DNA of 32,000 bases, from assembly GCF_000018105.1 (NCBI RefSeq), contig NC_009925.1, positions 3,090,001 through 3,122,000 of the forward strand, in the 5' to 3' direction. Numbering within the stretch: the stretch's first letter is position 1; every line of letters begins with the position of its first letter. The notes beneath the pieces were generated by a model. It saw nothing but the letters and a program-made list of their open reading frames with translations. It did not search any database and was not told where the DNA came from. Below are positions 11,555 through 26,821 of the stretch, in pieces. The DNA comes from Acaryochloris marina MBIC11017 (GTDB lineage: Bacteria; Cyanobacteriota; Cyanobacteriia; Thermosynechococcales; Thermosynechococcaceae). Made by a program: the position numbers and the translations under genes.

Positions 11555-14500
11555 ATGACAAGTAACGTCATTTTTATTCATCCTGATGGAGCAGACCCAT
11601 CACATTTTGCTGCTGCCCGGTTCAAATCTGTTGGCCCAGATGGTCGTCTGAACTGGGATGAAGCACCTGCAGCAGGCGTCTATCTAGGACACTTAGACGA
11701 TAGCGTGGTCGCCACATCTAATGGAGGTGCGGTCGTCCATGCTTATGGAATCAAGTCTGTTGCCCCCAGCTATGGCTTTGATGAAAACGGGATTGCATAT
11801 CAATCCCTTGCTGCTCTTCAAGGTCAGAATGTTGCGGGTTCAGCTCCAGACGCAACGGTTCTACAAGAAGCGATTGCAGCAGGTCGCCCAACGGCTGTGA
11901 TTAACTCAGGTTTCATTGCCGAACCCGGTACGGGCGTATTCCTAGCTGATGCAGAAAGTCGACGCGATCGCGAAGGTATTACTGCTCAGATTGTTGAATC
12001 CGGTGTCAACGTGATCATGGCTGCGGGTGAAATTGATTATCTTCCTGTTGGCACTGTTGGATTCTTCGGTGAAGAAGGAACCCGAACAGATGGCCGTAAC
12101 CTGATTGAGGAAGCCGAAGCTTTGGGCTATACCGTTGTGTATACCCGTGAGCAATTGGAAAGTCTGCCTGCAGACACCGAGCGCGTGTTGGGTGTTTTTG
12201 CTGCTGATGATACCTATAACGATGTTCCTGAAGGGCAGCTAATTCAAGACGGTTTTGTGGATGATAATGGTGAACTGATTACCTATGGTCAGCCACCTCT
12301 CAATCCAAATCCGCCTACTGTGGCTGAGATGCTGGAAGCAACGCTCAAGCTCGATTTATTTAGCCAAGAAGAAGACGGATTCTTTATCGTTCTTGAAGAA
12401 GAAGGAACCGATAACTTTGGCAACAACAACAATGCTCGGGGGACGATTGATGCCACCCTCAGAGCCGATGCTGCTATTGGGGTTGCAAGGGATTTTATTG
12501 ATAACGTCAACTCCAATACCTTTGTTGTCACCGCCGCAGATAGTGCGGGTGGGGCTTTAGAAATTGATGATGTTTCGGGTCCAACAGTAGGAACCACCAC
12601 GACCCAACGGCAGTTGAATGCAGCCGGAGAAAACAGTGGCATTACAGTACCTTTAGATGGCACAACGGGCAGCGACACTGCACCATTTGTGAGCGCACCG
12701 GATAGAAATGGTAACAGCTATGAATTCGGTGTTGCTTGGGCCGGTTTACCAGACTTTGCGGGGAGCATTGTTTCAAAAGCCTACGGCGAAGGGGCAGACC
12801 GTTTACCTGCAACCCTCGATAACACAACGATTTATCGACTGATCTACGAAAGTCTCTTTGATGTTCGTCTAGATGCACCAGAGGGTGTGCCCGATGATCT
12901 GGCTCCTCGTGAAGCCCCTGAACCCACTGCCGATACTGGCAATGTCATTTTTATTCACCCAGACGGGACCAGCCCTTCCCACTACGCAGCAGCACGGTTC
13001 TCATCCTTGGGGACTGATGGCCGTCTCAATTGGGACCAGATGAGCAATGCAGGGGTCTATTTAGGCCATATTGATGATCGTCTTGTTTCCACGTCTAATG
13101 CAGGAGCGGTTGTTCATGCTTACGGTGTAAAACCCTTTGCAGGTAGCTATGGGTTTGATGCACCTGTTGACGAAGGGGGCCAAGAAATCGTTGCCCTTTC
13201 CGGTCAGAATGCCACCATTGCCCAAGAGGCCCAGGCTGCTGGTAAAGCCGTCGGCATCATCAACTCTGGATTTATTGCTGAGCCAGGCACAGGCGTTTTT
13301 CTAGCTGATGTAGACAACCGGGGTGAGACAGAGGCCATTACAGCTGAAATTCTGGATCAGCGACCAGATGTGATTCTCGGGGCAGGTGAAACGGATTATT
13401 TGCCCGTTGGTACAGTCGGTTTTTTCGGGGAAGAAGGAACCCGAACTGATGGCCGCAACCTAATTGAAGAAGCCGAAGCAGCAGGGTATGAAGTTGTTTT
13501 CACCCGTGACGAACTGTTAGAAGTTGACACTGAAAATACGGATCGCTTGCTAGGTATTTTTGCAGCAGAAGACACCTATAACGACTTTTTCGAAGATGAG
13601 CTGCGTCGAGATGGTTTTGTCGACGAAAATGGCGATCTGATTCTGTATGGTCAGCCCCCTCTCAACCCCAATCCACCGACTGTGGCTGAGATGCTAGAGG
13701 TGGCACTGCCCATTCTCAACCGTGACCCAGATGGTTTCTTTTTGGCCTTGGAAGAGGAAGGAACAGACAATTTCGGTAATGATAACAATGCTGCTGGTAC
13801 TATCGAAGCTGCTCTCCGTGCCGATGAGGCTATCGGTGTTGCCCTTGATTTCGTCGACAATATTGATCCCAACACATTAGTCATCACAGCTGCAGATTCT
13901 GATGCAGGTGGCTTAGAAGTCGACGATGTCCCGATTAGTGGCTTTGGCTTAGATCCAGCCGATCCAGCTGCAGGGTTTACACTAAGAACTCAAGCTGAAT
14001 TGGCCGCTTTTGGCGATGACGCTGACGGAACGCTTGTTCAGGTTGATGATATTGACGGCAGCAATGACGTACCTGGCTTCAGTACCGATATTTTCGAAGC
14101 TTTCACCACAGGCGCTCCCGATGCCGATGGTGACGTGTTTGACTTCGGTGTTGCTTGGGCCACTCGCTCTGATGTCAATGGTGGCATCGTCTCCAAAACC
14201 TATGGTCTAAATGCTGACCTATTACCTGCCACAACAGACAATACTGATATCTATCGCGTCATGTATCAGACCCTGTTTGGTGTTGCTCCTGAAGCCGCAG
14301 GTAACAGCGAGTTAGAAGGATTTGCGTCTCTCCCCGCCGACACCTTTGCTGAGGGACCTCCTGCAGGTGGCGACAATGGTAATGGCGGCCCCATCGATGC
14401 CAACGGTCGCACGGGTCCTTTTGAGGGTCAACCCGTCCAAGGTTTTAGTGGTGTACAGTTTGCAGACAGCGATGGTAGTTTCTGGTTCTTGTCTGACAAT

Positions 14501-17200
14501 GGCTTTGGGGCTAAAACCAATAGCTCTGATTATTTACTGCGACTCTACAAAGTTGACCCCAGCTTTGCAGGTTCAGAAGGTGGTGATGGATCGGTTGAGG
14601 TCGAAGACTTTATTCAACTCTCTGATCCCAATAACCTCATCCCTTTTGAGATTCAGAATGAAGGTACGACTGAGCGTCAGCTCACCGGATCTGATTTCGA
14701 TATTGAGTCCTTTGTCATTGATGGCAATGGCGACATTTGGGTGGGTGAAGAATTTGGCCCTTACCTCCTGCACTTCAATAGCGATGGTGAGTTAATCGAA
14801 GCCCCCACTGCTACACCCAACCCAGTAGAACTGAATACCCTCAACGGCCAAGATCCCATCGTAATTGGACACCGGGGTGCCAGCGGTATTTTGCCAGAGC
14901 ACACACTAGAGGCCTATGCCACAGCCATCGCCCAAGGAGCTGACTTTATTGAGCCTGACTTGGTGATCACCAAAGATGGTGTCCTGATTGCTCGCCATGA
15001 GCCGCTGCTAGATGACACCACCAACGTCGCCGATGTTTTCGGTCCTGAGCGGATGTCGACCAAAATGTTGGATGGGGTAGAAACCACTGGCTACTTCGCC
15101 GAAGACTTCACCTTAGAAGAAATCAAAATGCTGCGAGCCGTGCAGTCTCGTGATTTTAGATCGCAGGATTTCAACGGCGCTTTCGAGATTCCCACCCTCA
15201 AAGAAGTGATTGAGCTGGTCCAGGAAGTCGAAGCCGACACTGGAACAGTGGTTGGCATTTATCCCGAAACCAAGCACCCCACCTTCTTTGATTTACAGGA
15301 TCTGTCCCTGGAAGAGCCACTTATTGCGACCTTCCAGGAAACAGGCTTTACGGATCCTAGCCGTCTATTTATCCAGTCCTTCGAGTTTCAGAACTTAATT
15401 GAACTCCAAGGCATGTTAGATGCAGAAGGTTTAGGCGATATTCCCCTAGTCCAGCTCTATGGCAATACCACTGCGAGTGCCAGTCCTGATTCTGGATTTT
15501 CTGTGCCCTACGATATTCGCTACAACGTTGAACAAGGCAACGACTTAGCAGCCATTTATGGGCAAGACTTCTTAGATGCAGCAGAAAACGCGCCGTCCGA
15601 AAACACCATTTACAGTGATTTAGACAATCCTGAAATTCTCCAAATTATTAGCGAGAAATATGCCGAAGGTGCTGGCCCTTGGAAAAATAATTTCTTACTG
15701 CGAGAAGCCCTTGATACTCCTGTAGATGGGGATGGCGACGGCAATGCTGAAATCACCACCCAACTGACCGGGGAAGTGACCTCTTTTGTGGATGATGCCC
15801 ACGCCGCTGGATTACAGGTTCATCCCTATACCCTGCGGAATGAAGAGCGGTTTCTAACCCTCAATGCCGATGGCACTCCACAAACCCCTAAGGAGGAAAT
15901 TAAGCAGCTGATTGACATTGGGGTAGATGGGTTCTTCACCGATTTTCCAGGGACCGGAGACGCAGTTCGAGATCAAATCGTGGCCGATGTGGTACGCTCA
16001 CCCGATAATCCTGATGTGTTGACAGGGGATGAGGTTTCTAACCTACCTCGCTCGCGCGGATTCGAAGGAATGGCCATCAGCCCCGATCGGATGACCCTCT
16101 ATCCCATGTTGGAGGGCACCGTCGAAGGCGATCCAGAAGGTTCCCTCAGAATTTATGAATTCGACGTAGAATCCAGCGAATATCAAGGCCTAGTCGGTCG
16201 CTATCAGCTAGATGACCCCAGCCATGCCATTGGTGATTTCACAGTCATTAACGAGAACGAATATCTGGTGATTGAGCGGGATGGTAATCAAGGAGATGAA
16301 GCTGCCTTCAAGAAAATCTTCAAGGTGGATTTGTCTCAATTGGATGACGAAGGGTTTGTGATGAAGGAAGAACTGGTTGATCTTCTGAGCATCAATGATC
16401 CGAATGATTTGAATGGAGATGGAGAGACAACTTTCAACTTTCCTTTCGTCACCATCGAAGATGTCCTGGTCATTGACGAAGATACTCTATTGGTTGCCAA
16501 TGACAACAACTATCCTTTCTCTATTGGTCGCGGACCTGACATCGATAACAACGAAATCATTCAGATCAAGCTCAACGAACCACTCGACCTGGATCCACGG
16601 GTTGGCTTAGCCGGTCTTGATGGTGGTGATAGCGATTCTGATGGTGAAGGTAATTCTGATGGTGAAGGCAGCGGCGATTCTTCCAGTGACGATAGCCAAG
16701 GCAGTCGCGGAATAGACGTCCTTTCGGGTGGTCCCACTGATGATGATCTTAGCGGTGGTCGTGGCGATGACACTATCACAGGTGGTCTCGGTGATGACAA
16801 CCTCATGGGAGGTCGGGGTAACGATCTCCTAGAAGGTGGTCAAGGTGACGACGATCTGTTTGGAGGACGGGGTCTAGATACGCTGAACGGTAACGAGGGT
16901 AGCGATATCCTAGTGGGTGGTCGAGGAGATGACCTACTGACGGGAGGCTCAGGTGAAGACCTATTCGCCCTCGCTGCAAGTGACGGCACCGACACCATCA
17001 CAGATTTCCTTATTGGCGAAGATGTCGTTGGTCTAATCGGTGGCTTGTCCTTCGAGCAATTAGAAATTGTTCAAGGAACTGGAACGCAAACCGCAGACAC
17101 TCTGATCTCCGTGGCAGAGACTGATGAACTCTTGGCTGTTTTAAGTGGAGTCCAAGCGACTACCCTCACTGACTCAGCCTTTGAAACATTCGTCGTCTAG
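11555..17200 (+). CDS. Giant secreted multi-domain phosphoesterase: 2x alkaline-phosphatase-like + phytase-like/GDPD + RTX calcium-binding repeats.
   Basis: 1881 aa with no N-terminal signal peptide.
- Two homologous AP-like modules occupy nt 11555-12870 and 12938-14290. Each has NVIFIHPDG, (A/S)TSN(G/A)GAVVHAYG, EEEGTDNFGN and TAADS.
- Phytase-like esterase motifs lie at 14308-14810 (FSGVQFADSDGSFWFLSDNGFG; DIESFVIDGNGDIWVGEEFGP) and at 16041-16600 (RGFEGMAISPD; LVANDNNYPF).
- The GDPD domain lies at 14858-15960 (VIGHRGASGILPEHTLEAY...GADFIEPDLVITKDGVLIARHE).
- A D/S/G linker is followed by GGxGxD nonapeptide repeats at 16727-16970.
- The protein ends in a short C-terminal tail. Confidence 0.9.
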   Translation: MTSNVIFIHPDGADPSHFAAARFKSVGPDGRLNWDEAPAAGVYLGHLDDSVVATSNGGAVVHAYGIKSVAPSYGFDENGIAYQSLAALQGQNVAGSAPDATVLQEAIAAGRPTAVINSGFIAEPGTGVFLADAESRRDREGITAQIVESGVNVIMAAGEIDYLPVGTVGFFGEEGTRTDGRNLIEEAEALGYTVVYTREQLESLPADTERVLGVFAADDTYNDVPEGQLIQDGFVDDNGELITYGQPPLNPNPPTVAEMLEATLKLDLFSQEEDGFFIVLEEEGTDNFGNNNNARGTIDATLRADAAIGVARDFIDNVNSNTFVVTAADSAGGALEIDDVSGPTVGTTTTQRQLNAAGENSGITVPLDGTTGSDTAPFVSAPDRNGNSYEFGVAWAGLPDFAGSIVSKAYGEGADRLPATLDNTTIYRLIYESLFDVRLDAPEGVPDDLAPREAPEPTADTGNVIFIHPDGTSPSHYAAARFSSLGTDGRLNWDQMSNAGVYLGHIDDRLVSTSNAGAVVHAYGVKPFAGSYGFDAPVDEGGQEIVALSGQNATIAQEAQAAGKAVGIINSGFIAEPGTGVFLADVDNRGETEAITAEILDQRPDVILGAGETDYLPVGTVGFFGEEGTRTDGRNLIEEAEAAGYEVVFTRDELLEVDTENTDRLLGIFAAEDTYNDFFEDELRRDGFVDENGDLILYGQPPLNPNPPTVAEMLEVALPILNRDPDGFFLALEEEGTDNFGNDNNAAGTIEAALRADEAIGVALDFVDNIDPNTLVITAADSDAGGLEVDDVPISGFGLDPADPAAGFTLRTQAELAAFGDDADGTLVQVDDIDGSNDVPGFSTDIFEAFTTGAPDADGDVFDFGVAWATRSDVNGGIVSKTYGLNADLLPATTDNTDIYRVMYQTLFGVAPEAAGNSELEGFASLPADTFAEGPPAGGDNGNGGPIDANGRTGPFEGQPVQGFSGVQFADSDGSFWFLSDNGFGAKTNSSDYLLRLYKVDPSFAGSEGGDGSVEVEDFIQLSDPNNLIPFEIQNEGTTERQLTGSDFDIESFVIDGNGDIWVGEEFGPYLLHFNSDGELIEAPTATPNPVELNTLNGQDPIVIGHRGASGILPEHTLEAYATAIAQGADFIEPDLVITKDGVLIARHEPLLDDTTNVADVFGPERMSTKMLDGVETTGYFAEDFTLEEIKMLRAVQSRDFRSQDFNGAFEIPTLKEVIELVQEVEADTGTVVGIYPETKHPTFFDLQDLSLEEPLIATFQETGFTDPSRLFIQSFEFQNLIELQGMLDAEGLGDIPLVQLYGNTTASASPDSGFSVPYDIRYNVEQGNDLAAIYGQDFLDAAENAPSENTIYSDLDNPEILQIISEKYAEGAGPWKNNFLLREALDTPVDGDGDGNAEITTQLTGEVTSFVDDAHAAGLQVHPYTLRNEERFLTLNADGTPQTPKEEIKQLIDIGVDGFFTDFPGTGDAVRDQIVADVVRSPDNPDVLTGDEVSNLPRSRGFEGMAISPDRMTLYPMLEGTVEGDPEGSLRIYEFDVESSEYQGLVGRYQLDDPSHAIGDFTVINENEYLVIERDGNQGDEAAFKKIFKVDLSQLDDEGFVMKEELVDLLSINDPNDLNGDGETTFNFPFVTIEDVLVIDEDTLLVANDNNYPFSIGRGPDIDNNEIIQIKLNEPLDLDPRVGLAGLDGGDSDSDGEGNSDGEGSGDSSSDDSQGSRGIDVLSGGPTDDDLSGGRGDDTITGGLGDDNLMGGRGNDLLEGGQGDDDLFGGRGLDTLNGNEGSDILVGGRGDDLLTGGSGEDLFALAASDGTDTITDFLIGEDVVGLIGGLSFEQLEIVQGTGTQTADTLISVAETDELLAVLSGVQATTLTDSAFETFVV

Positions 17201-17245
17201 TCCAAATTTACAGCGTTAACTTTCCTGATAAACGACTGAATCAGC

Positions 17246-17288
17246 AACGAGAGGTGAATTCTGTTCCGAACCACCTCTCGTTTTTTTT
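17246..17288 (+). terminator. Rho-independent terminator of the giant gene.
   Basis: An 11-bp perfect stem AACGAGAGGTG / CACCTCTCGTT with a 15-nt loop runs into a T8 tract. It lies 46 nt after the stop codon. Confidence 0.8.
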
Positions 17289-17454
17289 ACTTTGCGAGGT
17301 GCCTATGTCTCTACAGTCCGATATTCAGTTCAAACCTCAGACGCTGGACGAAGGGTAGGGATTCCTCGCGGCGGCCTTTGAGCAGCCTGTGGCCATCGCA
17401 TCTTAAAAAACCTCTCAAGACCCTTTAAGTCTTGCAGCTGATTCCTGCAATACA

Positions 17455-17497
17455 TAAAAGAAAAGAGCCGATTGCAGAAAAATTAGCAATCAGCTCT
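17455..17497 (-). terminator. Probable Rho-independent terminator for the minus-strand small secreted protein gene.
   Basis: A 12-bp stem with one mismatch (AGAGCCGATTGC / GCAATCAGCTCT). On the minus strand it is followed by TTTCTTTTA. It lies about 43 nt downstream of the stop at 17540. Confidence 0.55.
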
Positions 17498-17539
17498 AAA
17501 AGGTGTGAGGTATGTGTGTTTAGCGTTTTGTGATCTCAG

Positions 17540-17863
17540 TTAGCGAATATGAAATGCACCATTAGGACCACGCTGAATCACCTGTAGCGTTTTTGATGAT
17601 TGAGCAGCATTTTGGCGAATTTCCCGAGGTTGAGCAATCTGCGCTGCACCATGAGAGCCACGAGTAACAATATTGGGAAAACCTTTTGCAGGAGTGTTAG
17701 GCCGGACTTGAGCATCATGGGGAATGCGGTCGACCTTGACTTGGCGAGCTGCACCATGAGGACCGCGAGTAACAGTAACAGTTTCAGCAGTAGCGGGGGA
17801 AACAAAGCCTAGACTGAAGACTGTTAAACCTGCCAAGACAGCGACTTGATTGTTGCGTTTCAT
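17540..17863 (-). CDS. Small secreted protein with three RG(P/S)(H/N)GA repeats (107 aa from the ATG at 17863).
   Basis: The sequence from the internal ATG is MKRNNQVAVLAGLTVFSLGFVSPATA/ETV, a clear Sec signal peptide with an AxA site. The mature part has TVTRGPHGAARQV, IVTRGSHGAAQIA and VIQRGPNGAFHIR. The track start at 17998 is a TTG that would add 45 non-signal residues. Confidence 0.6.
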   Translation of the reverse strand: MKRNNQVAVLAGLTVFSLGFVSPATAETVTVTRGPHGAARQVKVDRIPHDAQVRPNTPAKGFPNIVTRGSHGAAQIAQPREIRQNAAQSSKTLQVIQRGPNGAFHIR

Positions 17864-18008
17864 TGTTTGCGCTCCAACTTCGATGACTTCAATGTACGAG
17901 GAGTATCTGAAGCTGGAATGATGGCGATCTGGGTGAGTCCCTGTAATTGGCTGAACAGACCATAAGGGATTAATGAGAATCCTGAGAGGTTCACTCAACC
18001 CACGATGA

Positions 18009-18842
18009 TTACCAGGATGTGACCAATACCTCCGTAATCTTGCCGCGCTTTTGGGGGTTAGAGTTGATGGCCCGAGCCGCTTGAATCGAGTAAATGTTGA
18101 ACGACTGGTAAAGGTCGCGGATAAACGAGCAATCTGAGTTAGACAGCATCACCTGTACGCCTCGACTTGCTAATTCAGCAAACACCTGAGCCAATTTCGT
18201 TTGATCTTTCGCCGTAAACGCACCTTTTGAATAGGCTGTAAAATCGCTTGTAGCGCTGATGGGATGATAGGGCGGATCGAAATAGACAAAATCCTGGGCT
18301 GATTGGGCCACCTCCAAAATCGTTTCAAACGGCTGCTGGTGGATCTGAACGGCTTGGAGAACTTCAGAAACCGCTTTCAGGAGCACTACATCACAAATTT
18401 TGGGTTTCTTGTATCGGCCCATAGGCACATTGAACTGTCCTTTGGAGTTTTCTCGATACAGACCATTGAAACAGGTGCGATTGAGATAAATAAATCGAGC
18501 GGCACGTTCAGCGGGTAAGGATGGATTGAGAGCTCGAATTTGGTAGTAGTAGTCATGACCATGCTGGCAGGCATGCGTCTCCAGATATTTCAAGACGTCA
18601 TCTATCCGATCGCGAACACAGGTATAAACATTGACCAGTTCAGGATTCACATCAGAAAGAACTGCCTGCTCCGGCTGTAAATGGAAAAAGATAGCACCAC
18701 CGCCTAAGAACGGCTCATAGTAAGCACCAAAGTTCTGAGGGAAATGCGGACCATATTGAGTGATTAATCGACCTTTGCCCCCTGCCCATTTCAGAAACGG
18801 ACGGGCAGGAACTCGCGCCTGAGTCGGCAATGGACTAGTCAT
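18009..18842 (-). CDS. dam: DNA adenine methyltransferase, Dam/D12 class (GATC type likely).
   Basis: RPFLKWAGGKGRL is the motif-I region. FVYFDPPY is the DPPY catalytic motif. Also present are YYEPFLGGGAIFF and NRTCFNGLYR. I prefer the ATG at 18842 (277 aa) over the upstream TTG at 18914. Confidence 0.9.
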   Translation of the reverse strand: MTSPLPTQARVPARPFLKWAGGKGRLITQYGPHFPQNFGAYYEPFLGGGAIFFHLQPEQAVLSDVNPELVNVYTCVRDRIDDVLKYLETHACQHGHDYYYQIRALNPSLPAERAARFIYLNRTCFNGLYRENSKGQFNVPMGRYKKPKICDVVLLKAVSEVLQAVQIHQQPFETILEVAQSAQDFVYFDPPYHPISATSDFTAYSKGAFTAKDQTKLAQVFAELASRGVQVMLSNSDCSFIRDLYQSFNIYSIQAARAINSNPQKRGKITEVLVTSW

Positions 18843-18937
18843 GGACGGGCAACCCCACAATGTAGAAGGTAAAGGCTTTGGGTTAAGATCAATCCTGTGA
18901 ATCAGAGAAATCAATAATATATATCGACTAAATCACT

Positions 18938-19144
18938 ATGGGTGACTTTTTTAAGAAACTCTCCTCGTATCCCAAGTTCTTCTTGGCGATTGTGGTTGGA
19001 GTATTTTGGACTTTACTCAAGCCTCTGCAGGGGTTTGCTAAGAATCCAGTGACTGGCTTGGCTGCCCTGGGCGTTATCGTCGGCGGCTTTGCCTTTCTTA
19101 GCTTCACCCTCAGTGCCATGATGGGGATGACTCCATTAAACTAG
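18938..19144 (+). CDS. Ycf33-like / DUF751 small membrane protein.
   Basis: 68 aa reading MGDFFKKLSSYPKFFLAIVVGVFWTLLKPL...KNPVTG. It has two hydrophobic helices. It matches my memory of the cyanobacterial and plastid Ycf33 family. Confidence 0.65.
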   Translation: MGDFFKKLSSYPKFFLAIVVGVFWTLLKPLQGFAKNPVTGLAALGVIVGGFAFLSFTLSAMMGMTPLN

Positions 19145-19208
19145 GCCTTGGGGAGACAACATATCTGTTAGCGGTTTCATCTCAGGGGAGATGGAGGAGT
19201 AGAAACGA

Positions 19209-19625
19209 ATGGCTACAGGACGACGGGTTTCTCGTGTTGCCGAATTAATTAAACGCGAAGTCAGCCAAATGTTATTGCATAGCATCAAAGATGATCGAGT
19301 CGGATCCGGGATGATTAGCGTTACGGCTGTGGATCTATCGGGTGATCTCCAACATGCCAAGATTTTTGTCAGCATTTATGGCACTGATGAAGCTAGAGCA
19401 GAAACAATGGCCGGTCTAGAATCAGCCACAGGCTATGTTCGTAAACAATTGGGGCATCGCATCCACCTTCGCCGCACTCCAGAAGTCATTTTTTGTGAAG
19501 ATCGCTCCTTTGAAGAAGGCAATCAGGTACTGTCGTTGCTCCATAAACTCGATCATGAGCGCCAGAATAAGCCTGCTGCCTCAACCGAAAAGCCTCCTGT
19601 AGGATCTTTAGACGCTGATCTCTAG
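19209..19625 (+). CDS. rbfA: Ribosome-binding factor A.
   Basis: [19 protein letters not shown]...[29 protein letters not shown]....[18 protein letters not shown] is the canonical RbfA pattern. Confidence 0.95.
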
Positions 19626-21254
19626 TTGGATGAACTCTTGACTCATTTATTGCCAGAGCCAGATTCTCTGTCTTTGCCAGAACAAGTTGCTCAAATGTTG
19701 GTCGTCCGAGCCTCCGGCTATCTGTTCGATCATCAAATTCAATATCCCAGTTGGGAACCCAGCGCTGAGGTGCTGCGCCACTGGCTCACGGATTTAGGAG
19801 TTGGTGGGGTGATTCTGCTAGGCGGTAGCGCCGGAGAGATTGCCTGTCGATGTCAGCAACTGCAAGAGTGGTCTGCAATCCCCCTATTGCTAGCGGCGGA
19901 TATTGAGGAAGGCGTCGGACAACGTTTTTCGGGAGCAACCTGGTTTCCTCCACCTTTAGCGTTAGCAGGGATGGTCCAAGCGGGAGCGGCCATCGAACAA
20001 GTTCAGCAGTCTGCTCAAGCCATGGGGGCTTGGACAGCCCAAGAAGCTTTAGCTATCGGTTTGAACTGGGTGTTGGCTCCGGTCGTGGATGTGAATAACA
20101 ATCCCCAAAACCCGGTGATTAATGTGCGGGCATTTGGGGAAACACCAGAGCTGGTCAGCCAATTATCTACAGCCTTTATCCAAGGAGCCCAACCCTATCC
20201 AGTCCTGACAACGGCGAAGCATTTCCCGGGGCATGGCGATACGGCTACGGATTCTCACTTGGATTTGCCAGTGATTCCCCATGATTGCGATCGCATCTAC
20301 AATACCGAGTACCCTCCTTTCCAGGCGGCGATTGCAGCCCATGTGGATGGGGTGATGAGCGCCCATTTATTGATACCGGCGTTAGACCCAGACTATCCCG
20401 CCACCCTATCTCCCAAAATTCTGACGGGAGAGCTTCGCCAAAAGTTGGGGTTTGAGGGGCTGATCGTCACGGATGCATTGGTGATGGGAGCCATTGCCAA
20501 TCAATATGGTGCCAATGAAGCGGCAGTGCTAGCGGTCGCTGCTGGAGCCGATATCCTGATGATGCCTGCGGATCCGCTGGGGGCAATTTCTGCGGTGTGT
20601 GAAGCGGTGGAACGAGGACGGATTCCCTTAGAACAAATTGAAGCGTCGGTGGAGCGGATTTGGCGGGCAAAGCAAAAAATTACCCGCTATGAAGTGGAGG
20701 ATACAAGTTATCAACATGCGTGGGAAACCCATACGCCTTTGCAGATCGATTTAGATCGGTTAGGAACGGCAGAGGCGATCGACGCGACTACCACGATCCT
20801 GAAGAGATCGAATGTGGTGCATGGACAGATTACTGCGATTCCTGACAATGCCCGAACGCTAATTATTGTGGATGATTTGGTGGATTGTGAGTTTCTTAGT
20901 CGCAAGGCTCTAGCGATTGATTTACCCCGCAAGTTGGGTTATCAGGTGCAAATTGTGGATGGTAATACGCCTGAGATACCGATGGATAAAGTGGGTCAGC
21001 CAACATTTTTGCAGTTGTTTATTCGCGGTAATCCGTTTAGAGGCAGTGCCCAGTTAAGTCGTCAGGCTGAAGCTTGGTTTGAGTTTTTGCTGCAATCTGA
21101 CCAGTTACAGGCTTTAGCGGTTTACGGCAGTCCCTATGCATTAGCTCAGTTTCAAGGACAGCTTTCTGCTGAGATTCCTTATGGGTTTAGTTATGGGCAA
21201 ATGCCTTTGGCGCAAAAACTTGTTCTCAAGCAATTATTAGGGCAGTTGGGATAA
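19626..21254 (+). CDS. nagZ: Glycoside hydrolase family 3, NagZ-like beta-N-acetylhexosaminidase with a C-terminal extension.
   Basis: The GH3/NagZ blocks KHFPGHGDTATDSHLDLPVI, NWVLAPVVDVN and GLIVTDAL are present. The TTG start abuts the rbfA stop. The conserved QVAQMLVV block requires a start this far upstream. Confidence 0.85.
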   Translation: MDELLTHLLPEPDSLSLPEQVAQMLVVRASGYLFDHQIQYPSWEPSAEVLRHWLTDLGVGGVILLGGSAGEIACRCQQLQEWSAIPLLLAADIEEGVGQRFSGATWFPPPLALAGMVQAGAAIEQVQQSAQAMGAWTAQEALAIGLNWVLAPVVDVNNNPQNPVINVRAFGETPELVSQLSTAFIQGAQPYPVLTTAKHFPGHGDTATDSHLDLPVIPHDCDRIYNTEYPPFQAAIAAHVDGVMSAHLLIPALDPDYPATLSPKILTGELRQKLGFEGLIVTDALVMGAIANQYGANEAAVLAVAAGADILMMPADPLGAISAVCEAVERGRIPLEQIEASVERIWRAKQKITRYEVEDTSYQHAWETHTPLQIDLDRLGTAEAIDATTTILKRSNVVHGQITAIPDNARTLIIVDDLVDCEFLSRKALAIDLPRKLGYQVQIVDGNTPEIPMDKVGQPTFLQLFIRGNPFRGSAQLSRQAEAWFEFLLQSDQLQALAVYGSPYALAQFQGQLSAEIPYGFSYGQMPLAQKLVLKQLLGQLG

Positions 21255-21488
21255 AACTTTGAAAAGTTTCTAACAGCTATCACTCCCCAAAATTTAGAGC
21301 ATCTGATTCGGTTGGATCAACCATGACGGAAGCTGAGAAATATGAGTAATCTTTACCAAATACAAATTACAGTCAACTGCAAAAACTCTTTAAATAACTT
21401 AAATCTTAAAGTTCTACGTTGCTAAAACCAAGCAATCTAAAAATTGCGATAGTTTAAGGATGATAAAGCGTCATTATTCTTATTTCGC

Positions 21489-24401
21489 ATGGGTTTATTG
21501 CAAGGTTTTTGGAATTTTCTGAGTACAGATGTTCGAGATTTTCCATGGGGGGAAGTTGCTCAACAAGGAATTGAAGCAGTCAAAACAACCTCTGAAGTTG
21601 GAAAAGCGATTAAAGAACAGGCACCGCATATCAAGCAACTGAAGCCGCATCTCAAGCAGATTGAACCCTTTTTAGAAACCATCAATTCACCTATTACCCA
21701 ATTGGCCGTATCGGGATTGCCCTTTTTGTCGATAGGGATTAGTTTTGTCAAAATTTATCTCTCCCTATCTAAGGAAGAGCCATCTTTTGAAAGCTCTGTT
21801 GTTCTCGTTTCCCAGCTTGCCTACTTACAGAGCTTAGAAGAGGTGATCAAAGGAAATCATGATGAAGAGACCCAAAAAAAGTTAGAAAAAATTTGGTTAC
21901 AGAAGCTTGTAAAAAGACAGTTGAATAAGATAACTGCCCAAGAGCTGAGTCAGTCTGAGGCGAAAGCAGCCACCAGTCGGTTTCCAGAATCTAGCTTGGC
22001 ACAACAATTCAACAGCGTATTACAAGAACAACTAGACCAAATAGAACTAGATAGCACCTTGAGTCAGCGGTTTGTCAACCAGGTGTGTTGGGGAACCCAT
22101 CAGTTTTTGCATCAGGCCATTGCTGAAGCGGGTGACGAGGTTAGTGTCCTTGCTGATGTTTATCGGACCGGCGGAAAAGCCATACAAGATAGATATGACA
22201 GCATCAACACTTATTTACAAGAACATATTCAACCCCTACCACATGAACAAGTCTTCGATGAAACAGAACCACGGATTACCTTTCTAGATCTCTATGTGTC
22301 TTTGGATGTGCAGCCGTTAGACCAATCAGGTGATCCAACTGGTCAACAACCAATCAATATTCATAAATGGGCTAAAAATATTCTCGACTCTAACGATGAG
22401 CAACGCAAGCTAATGTTTATTGAGGGAGAGGCAGGTCGAGGGAAATCAGTTTTTTGCCGAATGTTTGCAGATCTCGTACGGCAAGACTATCAGTTTTCGT
22501 TTGTACCCATTCTAATTCGTCTGCGGCGTTTACAAGTATTGAAAAATAATTTGACTGAGACCCTGGAAGATTCTCCAGAGTTAGAACAGGTAAGGTTTAT
22601 TCGAGGTAACAATGCGTGGTTAGCAGACCCCAATACCAGGTTTTTAATTATTTTGGATGGTTTTGATGAGTTACTACTGGAAGGTCGTGATAGTGGCGGG
22701 TTAAAAGAATTTTTGCAGCAGGTTGCAGCTTTCCAAAATGAAAGTAATCATCAATGTTTGATTACTGGACGCCCTTTAGCACTTCAGGGGATTGCTCAGT
22801 TGATCACTCAGACCAAAAATTTACAACGGGTCAAAATTCAGCCCATGAACGATCACCTGCGTAGTGATTGGCTAGGAAAATGGAGGAGAAAATTTGGCAA
22901 TCAAGAAGTCACTGAATTTGAAAATTTTTTAGCAGCATGTCCTGAAGAAATTCACAACAATTTAGCACGCGAACCACTCGTCCTATATCTATTAGCTCGA
23001 CTGCACCGAGAAGGTCGATTGCAATCAGCGATGTTCGCAAAAGCCGAGGGTATTGCCGCAAAACTCTGCATCTACCGAGAGTCTATCAAGTGGGTCTTGG
23101 AAAAACAGCGCGATGACGAAAATATTAGGTTAGCAGGTGTAGAAGATCTTGAAGATCTACACGATGTTCTGAAAGAGGCAGCGTTGTGTGTTGTGCAGTC
23201 GGGTAACGAAACTGCCAAGCTCTCCATGGTCAAGCAACGATTTAAGAATACGTCTAACCCTGTTGCCGAGATTTTAAAGCAGGCTGAAGATACGACAAAA
23301 ACATCTGAAGATAAAGTCCTCAATAATTTATTGACCACGTTTTATATCAAGCCGGGAGAAGGAGACAAGCGAGGATCCGTTGAATTTGCCCATAAGAGTT
23401 TTGGTGAATTCTTATTTGCCGAAAGACTACAGTCAGCAATTGAAGATTGGACCCGCTTAGATCATAGGGGTCGACGATTTGTTTTGGATGATCGTCAATT
23501 CCATGAACAACTCTATGATTTGTTGGGATATGGCGGATTGAGTGTTGAGATCGTTGATTATTTAATGGAACTGCTCAAGACCAGCAATCAGTATCAGCCT
23601 ATTCCACTCTTCCAACGTCTACATGAGTTCTATTTAAATTGGTGTGAGGGTGAATTTATAGACAGTTCACCAGCAGAAAATTTGCCCCAAAAAAAATTTT
23701 TACAGCTACAGTCCGTTAATATTAATTCTGGTCTGCGCCAGGTCGATGTCTTTACTGGACTTAATGTATTAATTTTATTGCTGAGGTTGCACTCAGATAA
23801 TCAACAGAAACCCAAAAGTGAAGCATGTGACGAGCTGATTTTCTATCCTTGCGGCAAAAGAGAGTCTACTGACTTTAAGACTCACAGATTTCTTCAGATT
23901 CTTCAGTATTCAGATTGTTTAGGCCCTGGTACATTTACCCGTCTAATCGGTTCTCATAGCCGATATGCCAACCTCTCCGATACCTACCTCTCCGGTACCT
24001 ACCTCTCCAATGCCAACCTCTCCAGTGCCAACCTCGACGGTGCCAACCTCGACGGTGCCTACCTCGACGGTACCAACCTCTCCGGTGCCAACCTCTCCGG
24101 TGCCTACTTCGACGGTGCCTACCTCGACGGTGCCAACCTCTCCAATGCCAACCTCTCCAATGCCTACCTCTCCGGTGCCTACCTCGACGTTGCCAACCTC
24201 TCCGGTGCCAACCTCTCCGGTGCCAACCTCTCCGGTGCCAACCTCTCCGGTGCCAACCTCTCCGGTGCCAACCTCTCCGGTGCCTACCTCTCCGGTGCCT
24301 ACCTCGACGGTGCCAACCTCTCCGGTGCCTACCTCGACGGTGCCAACCTCTCCGGTGCCAACCTCTCCGGTGCGATTATGCCTCAAGGCTTTACTAGTTG
24401 A
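21489..24401 (+). CDS. STAND/NACHT-family NTPase with an unrecognised N-terminal domain and C-terminal pentapeptide repeats.
   Basis: 970 aa. Walker A is FIEGEAGRGKSVF (about nt 22426-22449). Walker B is FLIILDGFDELL (about nt 22644-22670). The NACHT-associated block is HKSFGEFLFAERL. The last ~135 aa are A(N/Y)L(S/D)(G/N) pentapeptides. The first ~300 aa are helical, with one hydrophobic segment ITQLAVSGLPFLSIGISFVKIYLSL, and match no family I recognise. Confidence 0.88.
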   Translation: MGLLQGFWNFLSTDVRDFPWGEVAQQGIEAVKTTSEVGKAIKEQAPHIKQLKPHLKQIEPFLETINSPITQLAVSGLPFLSIGISFVKIYLSLSKEEPSFESSVVLVSQLAYLQSLEEVIKGNHDEETQKKLEKIWLQKLVKRQLNKITAQELSQSEAKAATSRFPESSLAQQFNSVLQEQLDQIELDSTLSQRFVNQVCWGTHQFLHQAIAEAGDEVSVLADVYRTGGKAIQDRYDSINTYLQEHIQPLPHEQVFDETEPRITFLDLYVSLDVQPLDQSGDPTGQQPINIHKWAKNILDSNDEQRKLMFIEGEAGRGKSVFCRMFADLVRQDYQFSFVPILIRLRRLQVLKNNLTETLEDSPELEQVRFIRGNNAWLADPNTRFLIILDGFDELLLEGRDSGGLKEFLQQVAAFQNESNHQCLITGRPLALQGIAQLITQTKNLQRVKIQPMNDHLRSDWLGKWRRKFGNQEVTEFENFLAACPEEIHNNLAREPLVLYLLARLHREGRLQSAMFAKAEGIAAKLCIYRESIKWVLEKQRDDENIRLAGVEDLEDLHDVLKEAALCVVQSGNETAKLSMVKQRFKNTSNPVAEILKQAEDTTKTSEDKVLNNLLTTFYIKPGEGDKRGSVEFAHKSFGEFLFAERLQSAIEDWTRLDHRGRRFVLDDRQFHEQLYDLLGYGGLSVEIVDYLMELLKTSNQYQPIPLFQRLHEFYLNWCEGEFIDSSPAENLPQKKFLQLQSVNINSGLRQVDVFTGLNVLILLLRLHSDNQQKPKSEACDELIFYPCGKRESTDFKTHRFLQILQYSDCLGPGTFTRLIGSHSRYANLSDTYLSGTYLSNANLSSANLDGANLDGAYLDGTNLSGANLSGAYFDGAYLDGANLSNANLSNAYLSGAYLDVANLSGANLSGANLSGANLSGANLSGANLSGAYLSGAYLDGANLSGAYLDGANLSGANLSGAIMPQGFTS
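23967..24371 (+). repeat. 27 tandem 15-bp units encoding the pentapeptide repeats. Six consecutive units are identical at 24192-24281.
   Basis: The units are gccaacctctccggt / gcctacctcgacggt and mixtures of the two. Variation is confined to a few positions. All frames on both strands are open across the array, which produces artefactual ORFs. Confidence 0.95.
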
Positions 24402-24548
24402 AATCACAAAAACTCTACTTCCCTGTCAAGTAAAATTCATGTTTCTCAGCCCAACATCACAGGTCACGGGCACCCCTTACAAATATTAGGGTTGCTTTAT
24501 GGTTTAAATTTAAATCGCCAACTTGTCTTATAAAAACATTCCGCCAAT

Positions 24549-25010
24549 CTAAGCAATATCCATTGGCGGAGAAGGTTGATTTTGTCTCAGGGCTGTCTGA
24601 ATTAACTGTTGTAGCTCATAACGAGTAATTTCTTCTCCCTGATCCAAATCACCCATCGTCTCCAAAAAGAGAATGCTATCCACAGGCTCCAACGCCAACA
24701 GCTGAAACAACAGCGGAATCACTGGCACTGGCAACGCCACCAAATCTGCTGACCGACTGGACCGAGTTGCATCCTGCAAATTGGCAAAGGCATAGACCAC
24801 CGTCTTTTCCAACCCCGGCTTTTGCCGATGCTGCAAGGTCGTTAACTGCCAATTTCCCTGCAAATTTTGCAGAATATAGTACTCCTCAAACTTCAAACGC
24901 TGCTCTGCCAACTCTTGCAGCAACGGCGCAATAATTCGAATCGCAGCAGGCATCCCACCGTCTTGCGGCGCTTCATCAATCAGTGCTTGCACCTGCGGCT
25001 GCAAATTCAT
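24549..25010 (-). CDS. Hypothetical protein (153 aa from the ATG at 25010), apparently co-transcribed with ilvB.
   Basis: MNLQPQVQALIDEAPQDGGMPAAIRIIAPLL... I recognise no family. The ATG lies 2 nt after the ilvB TAA (25013-25015). The track start at 25031 would overlap ilvB. Confidence 0.55.
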   Translation of the reverse strand: MNLQPQVQALIDEAPQDGGMPAAIRIIAPLLQELAEQRLKFEEYYILQNLQGNWQLTTLQHRQKPGLEKTVVYAFANLQDATRSSRSADLVALPVPVIPLLFQLLALEPVDSILFLETMGDLDQGEEITRYELQQLIQTALRQNQPSPPMDIA

Positions 25011-25012
25011 GC

Positions 25013-26821
25013 TTACAACTTTGTCCCGCACTCAGGGCAAAAGTGATTTGTTGAGGTATTTTTGGCCCCGCAGTTACTGCAATAAATCAGCTCTGCTGCC
25101 TTTTCTAAGGTTTTCTGATCCGGCAACCCTAGCATTTGGGCATTGCTCTTACCCGGTGCCACCATGGGATAGCAGTTTTCATCCCGCGTCACCTGGGCAT
25201 CTAACAGATAGGGACCATCAAACGCTAACATCTCAGCAATGACACTTTCGAGATCATTTCGCTCCCGCAAAATGCCACCCTTGACGCCAAATGCTTCCGC
25301 CAATTTCTCAAAATTAGGCATCCCGGCTTCCATACTGGAGTTGGAATAGCGCTCGCCAAAAAAGGCTTGCTGCCACTGGCGCACCATCCCTTGCCAGAAA
25401 TTATTGATAATGACCGTTTTGACCTTGATACCGTATTGGGCTAGGGTAGCCAACTCCTGCAAATTCATTTGGAAGCTGGCATCACCACTGATACAGATCA
25501 CTTGATGATCGGGTAATGCCACCTGTACCCCCATCGCCGCCGGTAAACCATAGCCCATGGTTCCCAGACCACCACTCGTCACCCACTGGCGAGGACCATT
25601 CTTCAGGAACTGAGCCGCCCACATTTGGTGCTGTCCGACATCTGTTGTGTAGTAGGCATGGGGTGCCTGTCGTTGCAGCTCCACAATCACCTCTTGGGGC
25701 GACAGCTTTGTGTCTGGTCTAGGCACCATCAATGGATAATCTCGCTGCCAACGTTCTACCCGAGAGCGCCACTCTTGTGTCTGGGCTGTATCAGGCGGTG
25801 AAGACTGTTTTGCTATTTTCAGCAGTTCCACTAAGACAGGCTTCACGCTACCCACAATCGGCACCGTCGGGGCACGATTTTTGCCCACTTCCGCTGGGTC
25901 AATATCGATATGAATCACTTTTGCCCTAGAGGCAAATTCATCAAGCTTACCCGTCACCCGATCATCAAAGCGGGCACCCACGGCAATCAGCAGATCACAT
26001 TCACTAACGGCAAAATTGGCATAGGCGGTGCCGTGCATACCCAACATCCCCACGGATAAGGGATGGGCCTCATCAAAGGAGCCTTTGCCCATCAGCGTTG
26101 TGGTTACCGGAATATGGAACCACTCAGCCAGCTCTTTCAGTTCAGCATGGGCTCCCGACGAAATGGCTCCACCACCTACATATAAGAGGGGAGATTTAGC
26201 CTGTCGAATGAGATCTAGGGCTTGTTTAATCTGACGCGGATTGCCTTTGACCGTGGGGCGATAGCCCTTTAAGCTAATGGTCCCTGGCTGCACAGGAGTA
26301 TAGTCAAACTCTTGAAGGCCTACGTCCTTGGGCACATCAATTAAAACGGGTCCTGGTCTACCGGTACCAGCAATATGGAAGGCTTCCGCCACAACCCGAG
26401 CCATATCCGCCGGATCACGCACCACATAGGAATGTTTCACCAGGGGCAGCGTAATCCCAAAAATATCGGTTTCTTGGAACGCATCACTGCCAATATTGGT
26501 CCGAGGCACCTGCCCCGTAATCACCACCATCGGAATTGAATCCATATGAGCGGTGGCAATTCCGGTCACCAAGTTGGTTGCCCCAGGACCGGAGGTCCCA
26601 AAGCAGATGCCGACCTGCCCCGTTGCTCTAGCATAGCCATCAGCAGCATGGGATGCACCTTGTTCATGGCGGACCAAAATATGTTTGAGATCGCCCCGCT
26701 GTTCTGCCTTATACACCTCATCATAAATCGGCAAAATCGCACCACCGGGATAGCCAAAAATATGTTTGACGCCGTGATTTTTTAGACTATCGATTAACGC
26801 AAAAGCTCCGGTTGCACGCAC
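25013..26821 (-). CDS. ilvB: Acetolactate synthase (AHAS) large subunit with a C-terminal zinc-ribbon-like tail.
   Basis: The N-terminus is [30 protein letters not shown]. The ThDP motif region is [15 protein letters not shown]...[13 protein letters not shown] start. The last 24 aa are [24 protein letters not shown] (CxxC-x10-CxxC). Confidence 0.95.

What the first reader, a model, noticed from the sequence alone, without database searches (positions are those of the whole stretch)
21489..24401. NACHT/STAND NTPase with a novel N-terminal domain and a pentapeptide-repeat sensor: candidate NLR-like defence or signalling protein
The tripartite layout is that of bacterial NLR-like/Avs-type STAND proteins.
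- An unknown ~300-aa helical N-terminus has one strongly hydrophobic segment.
- The NACHT NTPase has clear Walker A and B motifs.
- C-terminal repeats complete the protein.

In such proteins the N-terminus is usually the effector and the repeats are the ligand sensor. Here the sensor is a pentapeptide-repeat (DNA-mimicking beta-helix) array rather than TPR, WD40 or LRR. I cannot place the N-terminal domain in any family.

The gene is a stand-alone unit between AT-rich intergenic regions. It looks AT-richer than its neighbours and contains no HIP1 copy, which is compatible with horizontal acquisition.
Basis: partly seen in the sequence, partly recalled or inferred. Interest (0 to 1): 0.65.

Follow-up and report, generated by a model that had tools for sequence, protein, structure and literature searches.

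The report
Known-type cyanobacterial NLR-like NACHT protein
This gene encodes a bacterial relative of animal NLR immune sensors, of an already catalogued cyanobacterial type (NNH3 helical domain, NACHT switch, pentapeptide-repeat tail); its function is untested, and it sits in a chromosomal slot that holds different genes in different Acaryochloris strains.

Summary
The 970-aa ORF at 21489-24401 (+) and its three-part layout are confirmed. The N-terminus is not novel. It matches Pfam NNH3 (PF22735, E=2.9e-54). NNH3+NACHT+pentapeptide is clade 9 in the bacterial NACHT survey of Kibby et al., and more than 1,000 proteins, nearly all cyanobacterial, share it.

NNH3 has no known function or fold relative, and no clade-9 protein has been tested. 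"Defence" is therefore an inference by analogy.

The horizontal-transfer arguments are only partly valid:
- HIP1 absence is uninformative (P=0.37).
- Low GC is real (0.415 against about 0.50), but it recurs in homologues relative to their own flanks.
- A real replacement polymorphism exists. In a related Acaryochloris assembly (flanks 93-96% identical), the 3.27-kb cassette between GH3 and hyp160-ilvB is replaced by a GUN4-pentapeptide gene. A third strain carries something else again.

Two further observations:
- The 15-bp repeat array is the only difference from a second A. marina assembly over 20 kb (27 against 12 units).
- This copy lacks the C-terminal tail present in all 39 compared homologues.

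Verdict: an ordinary member of a known kind, with modest interest.

The parts
21255..21488 (+). AT-rich upstream intergenic region (234 bp, GC 0.325), presumed to hold the gene's own promoter. The part from 21283 onwards belongs to the strain-variable cassette.
   Evidence: GC. The homology break with L086 is at window 21282. The sigma-70 consensus scan found no site here.
21489..24401 (+). CDS of 970 aa: NNH3 + NACHT + pentapeptide-repeat protein (bacterial NLR-related, bNACHT clade-9 architecture).
   Evidence: ORF, Pfam, full-length AF2 model with pLDDT 82 and pTM 0.75, Foldseek.
21630..22265 (+). NNH3 domain (Pfam PF22735), residues 48-259. Residues 1-47 are a conserved N-terminal extension (W8, L11) that Kibby et al. 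include in NNH3.
   Evidence: E=2.9e-54. Alignment. All-helical model. No PDB or BFVD fold match.
21693..21764 (+). Conserved hydrophobic helix-break-helix segment, residues 69-92 (family motif SPxTQLAxSGLPFxSIGIxLLKL).
   Evidence: KD19 = 1.67. Motif conservation. Family median KD19 is 1.41.
22389..23933 (+). NACHT module, residues about 301-815 (NBD, helical and winged-helix subdomains). The Pfam NACHT core is residues 308-465 (22410-22883).
   Evidence: Pfam at 43 bits against a 26.7 cut-off. Foldseek hits to NLRC4 4kxf and NLRP3 7pzc at E about 3e-10.
22425..22448 (+). Walker A / P-loop, GEAGRGKS (residues 313-320).
   Evidence: Sequence. A315, G316, G318, K319 and S320 are invariant in 40 homologues.
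22644..22670 (+). Walker B, LIILDGFDE (residues 386-394).
   Evidence: Sequence. D390, G391, D393 and E394 are invariant.
22764..22775 (+). Sensor-1 type motif TGRP (residues 426-429).
   Evidence: T426, G427 and R428 are invariant. Assigning it to sensor 1 rests on my knowledge of NACHT motifs.
23385..23414 (+). Winged-helix motif FAHKSFGEFL (residues 633-642) with a conserved His635. This is the NLR-type His that contacts ADP in autoinhibited NLRs.
   Evidence: F633, H635, S637, F638, E640 and L642 are invariant. The functional assignment is by analogy with NLRC4 and was not tested.
23964..24368 (+). Pentapeptide-repeat array: 27 tandem 15-bp units encoding A(N/Y)L(S/D)G-type repeats, about 6.75 coils of a right-handed quadrilateral beta-helix. 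GC is 0.61. D+E = 9 and K+R = 2 over residues 816-970.
   Evidence: TRF, unit list, Pfam, pLDDT 93-98, fold matches to 2j8k, 3du1 and MfpA/QnrB1.
24402..24548 (.). AT-rich downstream intergenic region (147 bp, GC 0.374) between the convergent gene ends. It is part of the variable cassette.
   Evidence: Homology with L086 resumes at window 24551.
21283..24550 (.). Strain-variable cassette (3,268 bp). In L086 it is replaced by 1,439 bp that carry a 374-aa GUN4+pentapeptide gene on the opposite strand.
   Evidence: blastn boundaries, gene tables, Pfam of the replacement gene.

Best explanation
The gene encodes a single-gene bacterial NLR-related STAND NTPase. Its architecture, NNH3 helical domain + NACHT module + pentapeptide-repeat beta-helix, is already catalogued as bNACHT clade 9. 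The host is Acaryochloris marina (named from the closest database relatives); the window protein lies on a 6,503,724-bp contig.

Shown here:
- the domain composition;
- intact NTPase and winged-helix motifs;
- an NLR-like fold;
- stand-alone organisation;
- position in a strain-variable slot.

Inferred by analogy with NLRs and the tested bNACHTs, the likely mechanism is as follows.
1. The C-terminal beta-helix keeps the ADP-bound NACHT closed and acts as the trigger-binding surface.
2. Binding of a trigger (a phage or stress-derived protein) allows nucleotide exchange and oligomerisation.
3. Oligomerisation clusters the N-terminal NNH3 domains.
4. NNH3 has no conserved catalytic-type residues, so it probably acts non-enzymatically. 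It could recruit another factor, or it could associate with membranes through its conserved hydrophobic helix pair.
5. The most probable outcome is growth arrest or abortive infection.

The near-perfect 15-bp array makes the sensor's length highly changeable.
For: - Domains: Pfam gives NNH3 at 2.9e-54, NACHT at 43 bits (cut-off 26.7) and Pentapeptide at 2.5e-47.
- Motifs: Walker A, Walker B, TGRP and the FxHxSFxEFL motif are invariant in 40 homologues.
- Fold: the full-length AF2 model has pLDDT 82. It matches NLRC4 and NLRP3 at E about 3e-10 and Np275/276, HetL, MfpA and QnrB1 at probability 1.0.
- Family size: 1,070 proteins reach E<=1e-5 with the same architecture. Of 40 diverse long NNH3 proteins, 33 carry pentapeptide repeats and 32 hit NACHT.
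- Literature: Kibby et al. Table S1 lists NNH3+NACHT+Pentapeptide as clade 9 and classes pentapeptide repeats as 'antigen-receptor type' sensors. The same paper reports that diverse bNACHTs defend against phages.
- Variable context: contexts differ in three other genomes with no conserved partner gene. The slot is swapped in L086 and L088. Family copies lie on 5 cyanobacterial plasmids, one interrupted by an IS4 transposase.
- Non-enzymatic NNH3: no conserved His, Cys, Lys or Arg class in residues 1-300.
Against: - No clade-9 protein is among the tested bNACHTs that I could see. No clade-9 row in the part of Table S1 that I read carries a bNACHT label, and the NNH-bearing bNACHT16 belongs to clade 4.
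- No PADLOC model matches the protein.
- The window neighbours are housekeeping genes (rbfA, GH3, ilvB, MFS), not a defence island.
- The family is well conserved across cyanobacteria, at 46-61% identity over 800 aa. That is more than is typical for fast-evolving immune sensors.
- The repeat surface is of very low complexity (N/Y, S/D, G), which argues against a finely tuned, specific ligand-binding surface.
- This copy lacks the C-terminal tail present in all 39 compared homologues, so it may be impaired.
- NNH3 residues 1-77 are modelled at low confidence, and the hydrophobic segment is not consistently of transmembrane grade.
Confidence: 0.55

Rival explanations
1. It is a housekeeping-type signalling switch rather than an immune protein. 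In this reading the NNH3-NACHT-pentapeptide family is a cyanobacterial STAND regulator that senses an endogenous state (stress, photosynthesis or differentiation) and passes the signal on through NNH3-mediated protein interactions.
For: - The family is broadly conserved across cyanobacterial orders with well-conserved NNH3 and NACHT parts.
- Variants fused to a receiver (REC) domain exist in clade 9.
- Cyanobacterial pentapeptide proteins such as HetL act in development, and HetL is the best NCBIfam repeat match, though far below its cut-off.
- The slot's alternative occupant carries GUN4, a tetrapyrrole-sensing domain.
- No PADLOC model matches, and the neighbours are housekeeping genes.
Against: - The gene is dispensable at this locus: related strains carry other genes there.
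- Several paralogues occur per genome, some on plasmids, and one is interrupted by an IS element.
- An EAD10 effector-associated domain is fused to NNH3 in one clade-9 member.
- One homologue lies next to terminase genes.
- This pattern is typical of conflict systems as described by Kaur et al. and Kibby et al.
Confidence: 0.25
2. The roles are reversed. The acidic pentapeptide beta-helix is the output: a DNA mimic that, once exposed or multimerised, sequesters gyrase or another DNA-binding protein of host or phage. NNH3 would then be the sensor or regulatory domain.
For: - The fold matches the DNA mimics MfpA and QnrB1.
- The repeat domain is net acidic, with 9 D/E against 2 K/R.
- Kaur et al. 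note that pentapeptide repeats can inhibit DNA-binding proteins.
- NNH3 has no catalytic signature.
Against: - Scores against the Qnr and MfpA equivalog models are far below their cut-offs (52 against 240 bits, 44 against 360 bits).
- In STAND proteins C-terminal repeats are, as a rule, the sensors.
- An array that can be 12 or 27 units long fits poorly with a shape-matched DNA mimic.
- Most homologues add a further C-terminal tail, which would be the natural tethering or sensing element.
Confidence: 0.1
3. This copy is a decaying, functionally impaired allele. It has lost the family's C-terminal tail and carries an unstable repeat array, and it persists as near-neutral cargo in a variable slot.
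For: - The protein ends 9 residues after the last repeat, whereas all 39 compared homologues have tails of 11-184 residues.
- No remnant of the tail is found in any frame downstream.
- The array differs by 15 units between otherwise identical assemblies.
Against: - The 970-codon ORF is intact and every conserved NACHT motif is present.
- The non-repeat sequence is identical in two genome assemblies and several read-set assemblies.
- Tail-less NNH3+NACHT+Pentapeptide architectures are listed in Kibby Table S1.
Confidence: 0.1

Closest known systems
[quoted passage not shown]
   Same: The domain order is identical (NNH3, NACHT, pentapeptide repeats). The family is mainly cyanobacterial and consists of single-gene units.
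   Different: This copy has no C-terminal tail, REC or EAD10 additions. Placement in clade 9 rests on architecture, not on a phylogeny made here. No clade-9 member has a demonstrated function.
Animal NLRs NLRC4 and NLRP3 (PDB 4kxf, 7pzc)
   Same: The NACHT module fold matches (NBD, helical and winged-helix subdomains; Foldseek E about 3e-10, probability 1.0). Walker A/B, the TxRP motif and the winged-helix His motif are shared. The three-part logic of effector, switch and repeats is the same.
   Different: Sequence identity is 12-16%. The sensor is a pentapeptide beta-helix rather than LRRs. The N-terminus is NNH3 rather than CARD or PYD.
Cyanobacterial pentapeptide-repeat proteins Np275/Np276 (2j8k), HetL (3du1) and Rfr23 (2o6w)
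   Same: The right-handed quadrilateral beta-helix of A(D/N)LXX repeats is shared, with 33-46% identity over the repeat region.
   Different: Those are small stand-alone repeat proteins, whereas here the helix is the C-terminal module of a STAND NTPase. The NCBIfam HetL equivalog cut-off is not met (91 against 260 bits).
Avs (antiviral STAND) proteins
   Same: Single-polypeptide STAND NTPases with an N-terminal output and a C-terminal repeat sensor; the general working logic is the same (my knowledge).
   Different: No PADLOC model, including the Avs and NLR-like models, matches. The NTPase is of NACHT type, the sensor is pentapeptide rather than TPR-like, and there is no nuclease or other enzymatic effector.

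Membership tests
NACHT-clade STAND NTPases (Pfam PF05729) | Walker A P-loop GxxGxGK[ST] | tested here: met
   G313-E-A-G-R-G-K-S320; invariant in 40 homologues.
NACHT-clade STAND NTPases (Pfam PF05729) | Walker B with the acidic pair hhhhDGxDE | tested here: met
   L386-IILDGFD-E394. D390, G391, D393 and E394 are invariant.
NACHT-clade STAND NTPases (Pfam PF05729) | Profile score above Pfam's gathering threshold | tested here: met
   43.0 bits against a cut-off of 26.7, residues 308-465.
NACHT-clade STAND NTPases (Pfam PF05729) | NBD, helical and winged-helix module fold with a conserved winged-helix His | tested here: met
   Foldseek to NLRC4 and NLRP3 at E about 3e-10 and probability 1.0. 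The FAHKSFGEFL motif has an invariant H635.
NACHT-clade STAND NTPases (Pfam PF05729) | Nucleotide-dependent switching and oligomerisation | not testable with these tools
   Requires biochemistry.
bNACHT clade 9 (Kibby et al.) | N-terminal NNH3 or NNH4 helical domain | tested here: met
   PF22735 NNH3 at E=2.9e-54, residues 48-259.
bNACHT clade 9 (Kibby et al.) | C-terminal pentapeptide-repeat sensor | tested here: met
   PF00805 at E=2.5e-47. 27 units. Beta-helix fold matches.
bNACHT clade 9 (Kibby et al.) | NACHT module groups with clade 9 in a NACHT-only phylogeny | not tested
   Only the architecture was compared with Table S1. No tree was built with their sequences.
bNACHT clade 9 (Kibby et al.) | Anti-phage activity | not testable with these tools
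   Not shown in the paper for any clade-9 member that I could see.
Known defence systems in PADLOC-DB v2 (including Avs and NLR-like models) | Match to a defence-system protein model | tested here: not met
   The only hit is a spurious Type I MTase match at E=0.0035.
Pentapeptide-repeat proteins (Rfr fold) | Tandem A(D/N)LXX units that form a quadrilateral beta-helix | tested here: met
   Model pLDDT is 93-98 over the array. Foldseek matches 2j8k and 3du1.
DNA-mimic pentapeptide proteins (Qnr, MfpA) | Equivalog-level similarity to Qnr or MfpA | tested here: not met
   Qnr scores 52 bits against a cut-off of 240, and MfpA 44 against 360. DNA mimicry itself cannot be tested here.
Membrane-executing helical NLR effector domains (plant CC, fungal HeLo, MLKL 4HB) | Fold or sequence similarity of the N-terminal domain | tested here: not met
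   No PDB match (best E=1.0, TM<=0.30). The profile search against PDB sequences found nothing below E=0.14. Caveat: the N-terminal model has pLDDT 67, with residues 1-77 below 50.

The most novel reading that the evidence does not exclude
NNH3 could be a previously unrecognised, non-enzymatic executioner domain. On NACHT oligomerisation, its conserved hydrophobic helix pair and flexible N-terminal ~78 residues would insert into or perturb the membrane, working like plant CC or fungal HeLo domains without being related to them. The pentapeptide beta-helix would be a fast length-switching sensor (27 against 12 units in otherwise identical genomes). The GH3/ilvB slot would be an Acaryochloris hotspot that exchanges alternative pentapeptide-based sensor cassettes (NACHT type against GUN4 type).
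Probability: 0.1. Interest if true: 0.6.

Novelty: new member of a known kind. Interest (0 to 1): 0.25.

Why it matters
If the analogy holds, this is one of many NLR-like immune or stress sensors that cyanobacteria carry in several copies. Its class (clade 9: NNH3 output, pentapeptide sensor) has no experimental characterisation at all.

The local details found here give concrete handles for experiments on that class:
- a clean cassette swap between strains;
- a repeat array that is the only difference between two near-identical assemblies;
- a tail-less variant.

None of this changes how such systems are understood. The architecture, the domain names and the proposed logic are already published.

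Tried and rejected
- **Genome scan with the protein itself.** A scan of genome contigs with NACHT residues 1-800 found no relative. I then used the GH3 neighbour instead.
- **Fold and profile searches for NNH3.** Foldseek of the N-terminal model against the PDB and BFVD, and a profile search against PDB sequences, gave nothing significant. The fold class of NNH3 stays open. A weak 'programmed cell death protein 5' hit (E about 0.5) is noise.
- **PDB sequence search for the NACHT part.** phmmer of the NACHT region against PDB sequences gave only chance hits to Tti1. The relation to NLRs shows only at the fold level.
- **P0191.** This 3,862-aa protein has 25 matches to residues 26-75. It is a Glu-rich low-complexity repeat protein, so the match is compositional and I rejected it.
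- **Mobility signatures.** I looked for flanking direct repeats and found none. The 14-nt inverted repeat I3 (21332/24437) is at about the number expected by chance by my own estimate of about 1 such pair in 3.4 kb. I saw no integrase or transposase among the window's ORFs, though I did not scan them all.
- **Promoter and terminator scans.** Fewer hits than in shuffled sequence, so they are uninformative.
- **Overlapping ORFs.** The ORFs at 23943-24407 (-) and 23965-24489 (+) are alternative-frame readings of the repeat array, not genes.
- **HIP1 absence as a foreignness marker.** Rejected on Poisson grounds.
- **Codon-usage divergence.** 0.073, within the range of the neighbours (0.03-0.23).
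- **Exact-match look-ups.** P0029, P0033 and hyp160 were not on record.
- **First literature search.** The search for 'NNH3' returned only chemistry papers.
Full report
**Observation.**
Pfam finds three modules:
- NNH3 (PF22735, 'NACHT N-terminal Helical domain 3'), residues 48-259, E=2.9e-54;
- NACHT (PF05729), residues 308-465, 43 bits against a gathering score of 26.7;
- pentapeptide repeats (PF00805, E=2.5e-47) over about residues 820-964.

The NTPase motifs can be read directly from the sequence. They are Walker A GEAGRGKS (313-320), Walker B LIILDGFDE (386-394), a TGRP motif (426-429) and a winged-helix FAHKSFGEFL motif with His635. All are invariant in an alignment of 40 homologues. Tandem Repeats Finder reports 27.2 copies of a 15-bp unit at 23966-24373. 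So the three-part layout is real. The statement that the N-terminus cannot be placed in any family is not correct.

**Organism and family.**
The window protein is in the public collection on a 6,503,724-bp contig. Its closest relatives are named Acaryochloris marina. A search with residues 1-800 found 1,070 proteins at E<=1e-5. The listed ones are almost all cyanobacterial and have the same NNH3+NACHT+pentapeptide make-up, at 46-64% identity. They include two paralogues named A. marina: P0029 on a contig of the same length as the window's, and P0033 on a 120,693-bp contig.

An exhaustive HMMER scan of 1.84 billion cluster representatives with residues 1-300 found only 207 hits. The matches lie at or near the N-terminus, apart from some truncated fragments. 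Among 40 long, diverse members, 39 hit NNH3, 33 hit pentapeptide repeats and 32 hit NACHT. The pentapeptide sensor is therefore the rule for NNH3 proteins, not an oddity.

**Literature.**
Kibby et al. (bioRxiv 10.1101/2022.07.19.500537) define NNH as 'NACHT N-terminal helical domain' and list pentapeptide repeats among the 'antigen-receptor type' sensors. Their Table S1 lists NNH3+NACHT+Pentapeptide proteins from Nostoc, Anabaena, Leptolyngbya and others as clade 9. The same clade holds NNH4 versions from Vibrio and other bacteria, and variants with EAD10 in front of NNH3 or REC at the end.

No clade-9 row in the part of Table S1 that I read carries a tested 'bNACHT' label. bNACHT16, which has an NNH domain, belongs to clade 4 (NNH1 + LRR) and has no listed defence phenotype. 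A search for later work found nothing relevant. No PADLOC model matches the protein.

**Structure.**
The full-length AlphaFold2 model has mean pLDDT 82.2 and pTM 0.75, and the repeat region scores 93-98. Foldseek against the PDB returns NLRC4 (4kxf) and NLRP3 (7pzc, 7zgu) at E about 3e-10, and also NLRP1 and NLRP7. For the tail it returns Np275/276 (2j8k), HetL (3du1), MfpA, QnrB1 and Rfr23. All are at probability 1.0.

The N-terminal domain on its own is all-helical. Its confidence is moderate for residues 80-300 and low for residues 1-77. It has no significant match in the PDB (best E=1.0, TM<=0.30), in BFVD or by profile against PDB sequences.

Conserved NNH3 positions are mostly hydrophobic or aromatic, plus S115, S168 and E258. 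No His, Cys, Lys or Arg class is conserved. This argues for a non-enzymatic role.

The hydrophobic segment at residues 69-92 is real (KD19 = 1.67) and its motif is conserved. Across 62 members, however, the median is 1.41 and only 39% reach 1.6. A true transmembrane helix is therefore doubtful.

**Horizontal-acquisition arguments.**
- *HIP1.* There are 11 copies in 32 kb, so about 1.0 is expected in the gene and P(0)=0.37. Longer HIP1-free gaps occur elsewhere in the window. The argument carries no weight.
- *Composition.* The non-repeat part has GC 0.415 and GC3 0.373, against about 0.50 for the neighbours. The repeats have GC 0.61. Homologues in three other genomes are also below their own flanks: 0.517 against 0.540, 0.419 against 0.496 and 0.385 against 0.427. 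Codon-usage divergence here (0.073) lies within the neighbours' range. Low GC therefore looks like a family trait.
- *Synteny.* rbfA-GH3 is conserved in 80 loci from other species. None of them has a NACHT relative within the DNA held, up to 10 kb from GH3.
- *Slot replacement.* This is the decisive evidence, and it comes from closer strains. In L086, whose flanks are 93-96% identical, homology stops 28 bp after the GH3 stop (window 21282) and resumes at the end of hyp160 (window 24551). The 3,268 bp in between are replaced by 1,439 bp that carry a 374-aa GUN4+pentapeptide gene on the other strand. In L088 (95.5% identical) homology stops at window 21223, and an unrelated 155-aa ORF follows.
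- *Mobility marks.* I found none at the boundaries. Family copies do lie on five cyanobacterial plasmids, one interrupted by an IS4 transposase. None is found in phage genomes.

So the predicted presence/absence polymorphism exists, in the form of a cassette replacement in a variable slot.

**Two additional features.**
First, against a second A. marina assembly (AP026075, L001) the window shows zero mismatches over 11489-23888 and downstream of the array to 32000. The array, however, has 27 units here and 12 there, and the difference is not a single clean deletion. Short-read contigs that are otherwise identical to the window break inside the array at 24102. An assembly artefact therefore cannot be excluded.

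Second, all 39 compared homologues have a tail of 11-184 residues after the repeats. The tails fall into several classes, for example RYPExFETLEAAExFV, IxWxxxTNWxxxxGL and TPR-containing tails. This protein ends 9 residues after its last repeat, and no remnant of a tail is found downstream in any frame.

**Mechanism.**
*Shown:* the domain make-up, intact switch motifs, an NLR-like fold, stand-alone organisation and location in a variable slot.

*Inferred by analogy with NLRs and the tested bNACHTs:* the repeats autoinhibit the NACHT and sense a trigger. Nucleotide exchange and oligomerisation then cluster NNH3, which acts non-enzymatically as an adaptor or a membrane-active domain.

The main rival is a non-immune signalling role. 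It is supported by the family's broad conservation, the REC-fused variants, the housekeeping neighbourhood and the lack of any PADLOC match. Lesser rivals are a role reversal, with the acidic beta-helix acting as a DNA-mimic output, and a decaying tail-less allele.

**Verdict.**
This is a member of a known, catalogued but functionally untested kind. The claims of a novel N-terminal domain, an unusual sensor and HIP1-based foreignness do not.

Noticed in passing
window 23964-24368 vs L001 12478-12660: The pentapeptide array is the only difference over about 20 kb between two A. marina assemblies (27 against 12 units; zero mismatches elsewhere). Short-read contigs break inside it at window 24102. 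It is either a hypervariable VNTR-like coding array or an assembly artefact.
   Followed up: partly
L086 7813-9251 (replaces window 21283-24550): In a related Acaryochloris assembly the same slot holds a 374-aa GUN4 + pentapeptide-repeat gene on the opposite strand. In L088 an unrelated 155-aa ORF with a hydrophobic N-terminus follows GH3. The slot therefore has at least three alternative occupants, two of them pentapeptide proteins.
   Followed up: partly
window 24369-24401 (protein C-terminus): The protein lacks the post-repeat tail found in all 39 compared homologues. The tails fall into several classes, for example RYPExFETLEAAExFV, IxWxxxTNWxxxxGLxxAxNxP and KQRRxRWVEALKAGxNPFTPEELE. These tail families look like distinct small C-terminal domains of unknown function.
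   Followed up: partly
L082 10848-12664 and 9335-10729: The homologue P0003 (Leptolyngbya sp. SIO1E4) lies next to terminase large and small subunit genes, many small unannotated ORFs and a second stand-alone pentapeptide protein. This is a prophage-like neighbourhood.
   Followed up: no
window 10236-11554: A 1.3-kb AT-rich non-coding stretch (GC 0.36; the 1-kb window minimum is 0.33) lies upstream of an 1,881-aa protein with alkaline phosphatase, phytase-like, GDPD and RTX calcium-binding domains (11555-17200).
   Followed up: no
window 18009-18914 (-): A Dam-like DNA methyltransferase (PF02086, per the gene table of the identical locus L001) has no obvious restriction partner nearby. The flanking small ORFs have no Pfam hit.
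   Followed up: no
window 19209-21254: rbfA and a GH3 glycosidase abut directly: the rbfA stop is at 19625 and the GH3 start at 19626. The pair is conserved in most of the 80 cyanobacterial loci examined. This is an unexpected housekeeping linkage.
   Followed up: partly
window 24549-25031 (-) and 25013-26821 (-): A 160-aa ORF with no Pfam, PHROG or exact database match overlaps the start of ilvB by 19 bp and is syntenic in related strains. ilvB itself carries a C-terminal zinc-ribbon extension (PF13240/PF13248, weak).
   Followed up: no
plasmid NZ_CP071719.1 86469-91319 (hit H1): A 57%-identical paralogue on an Acaryochloris sp. 'Moss Beach' plasmid matches in three pieces, with an IS4 transposase annotated under the match. 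This is an IS-disrupted copy.
   Followed up: no
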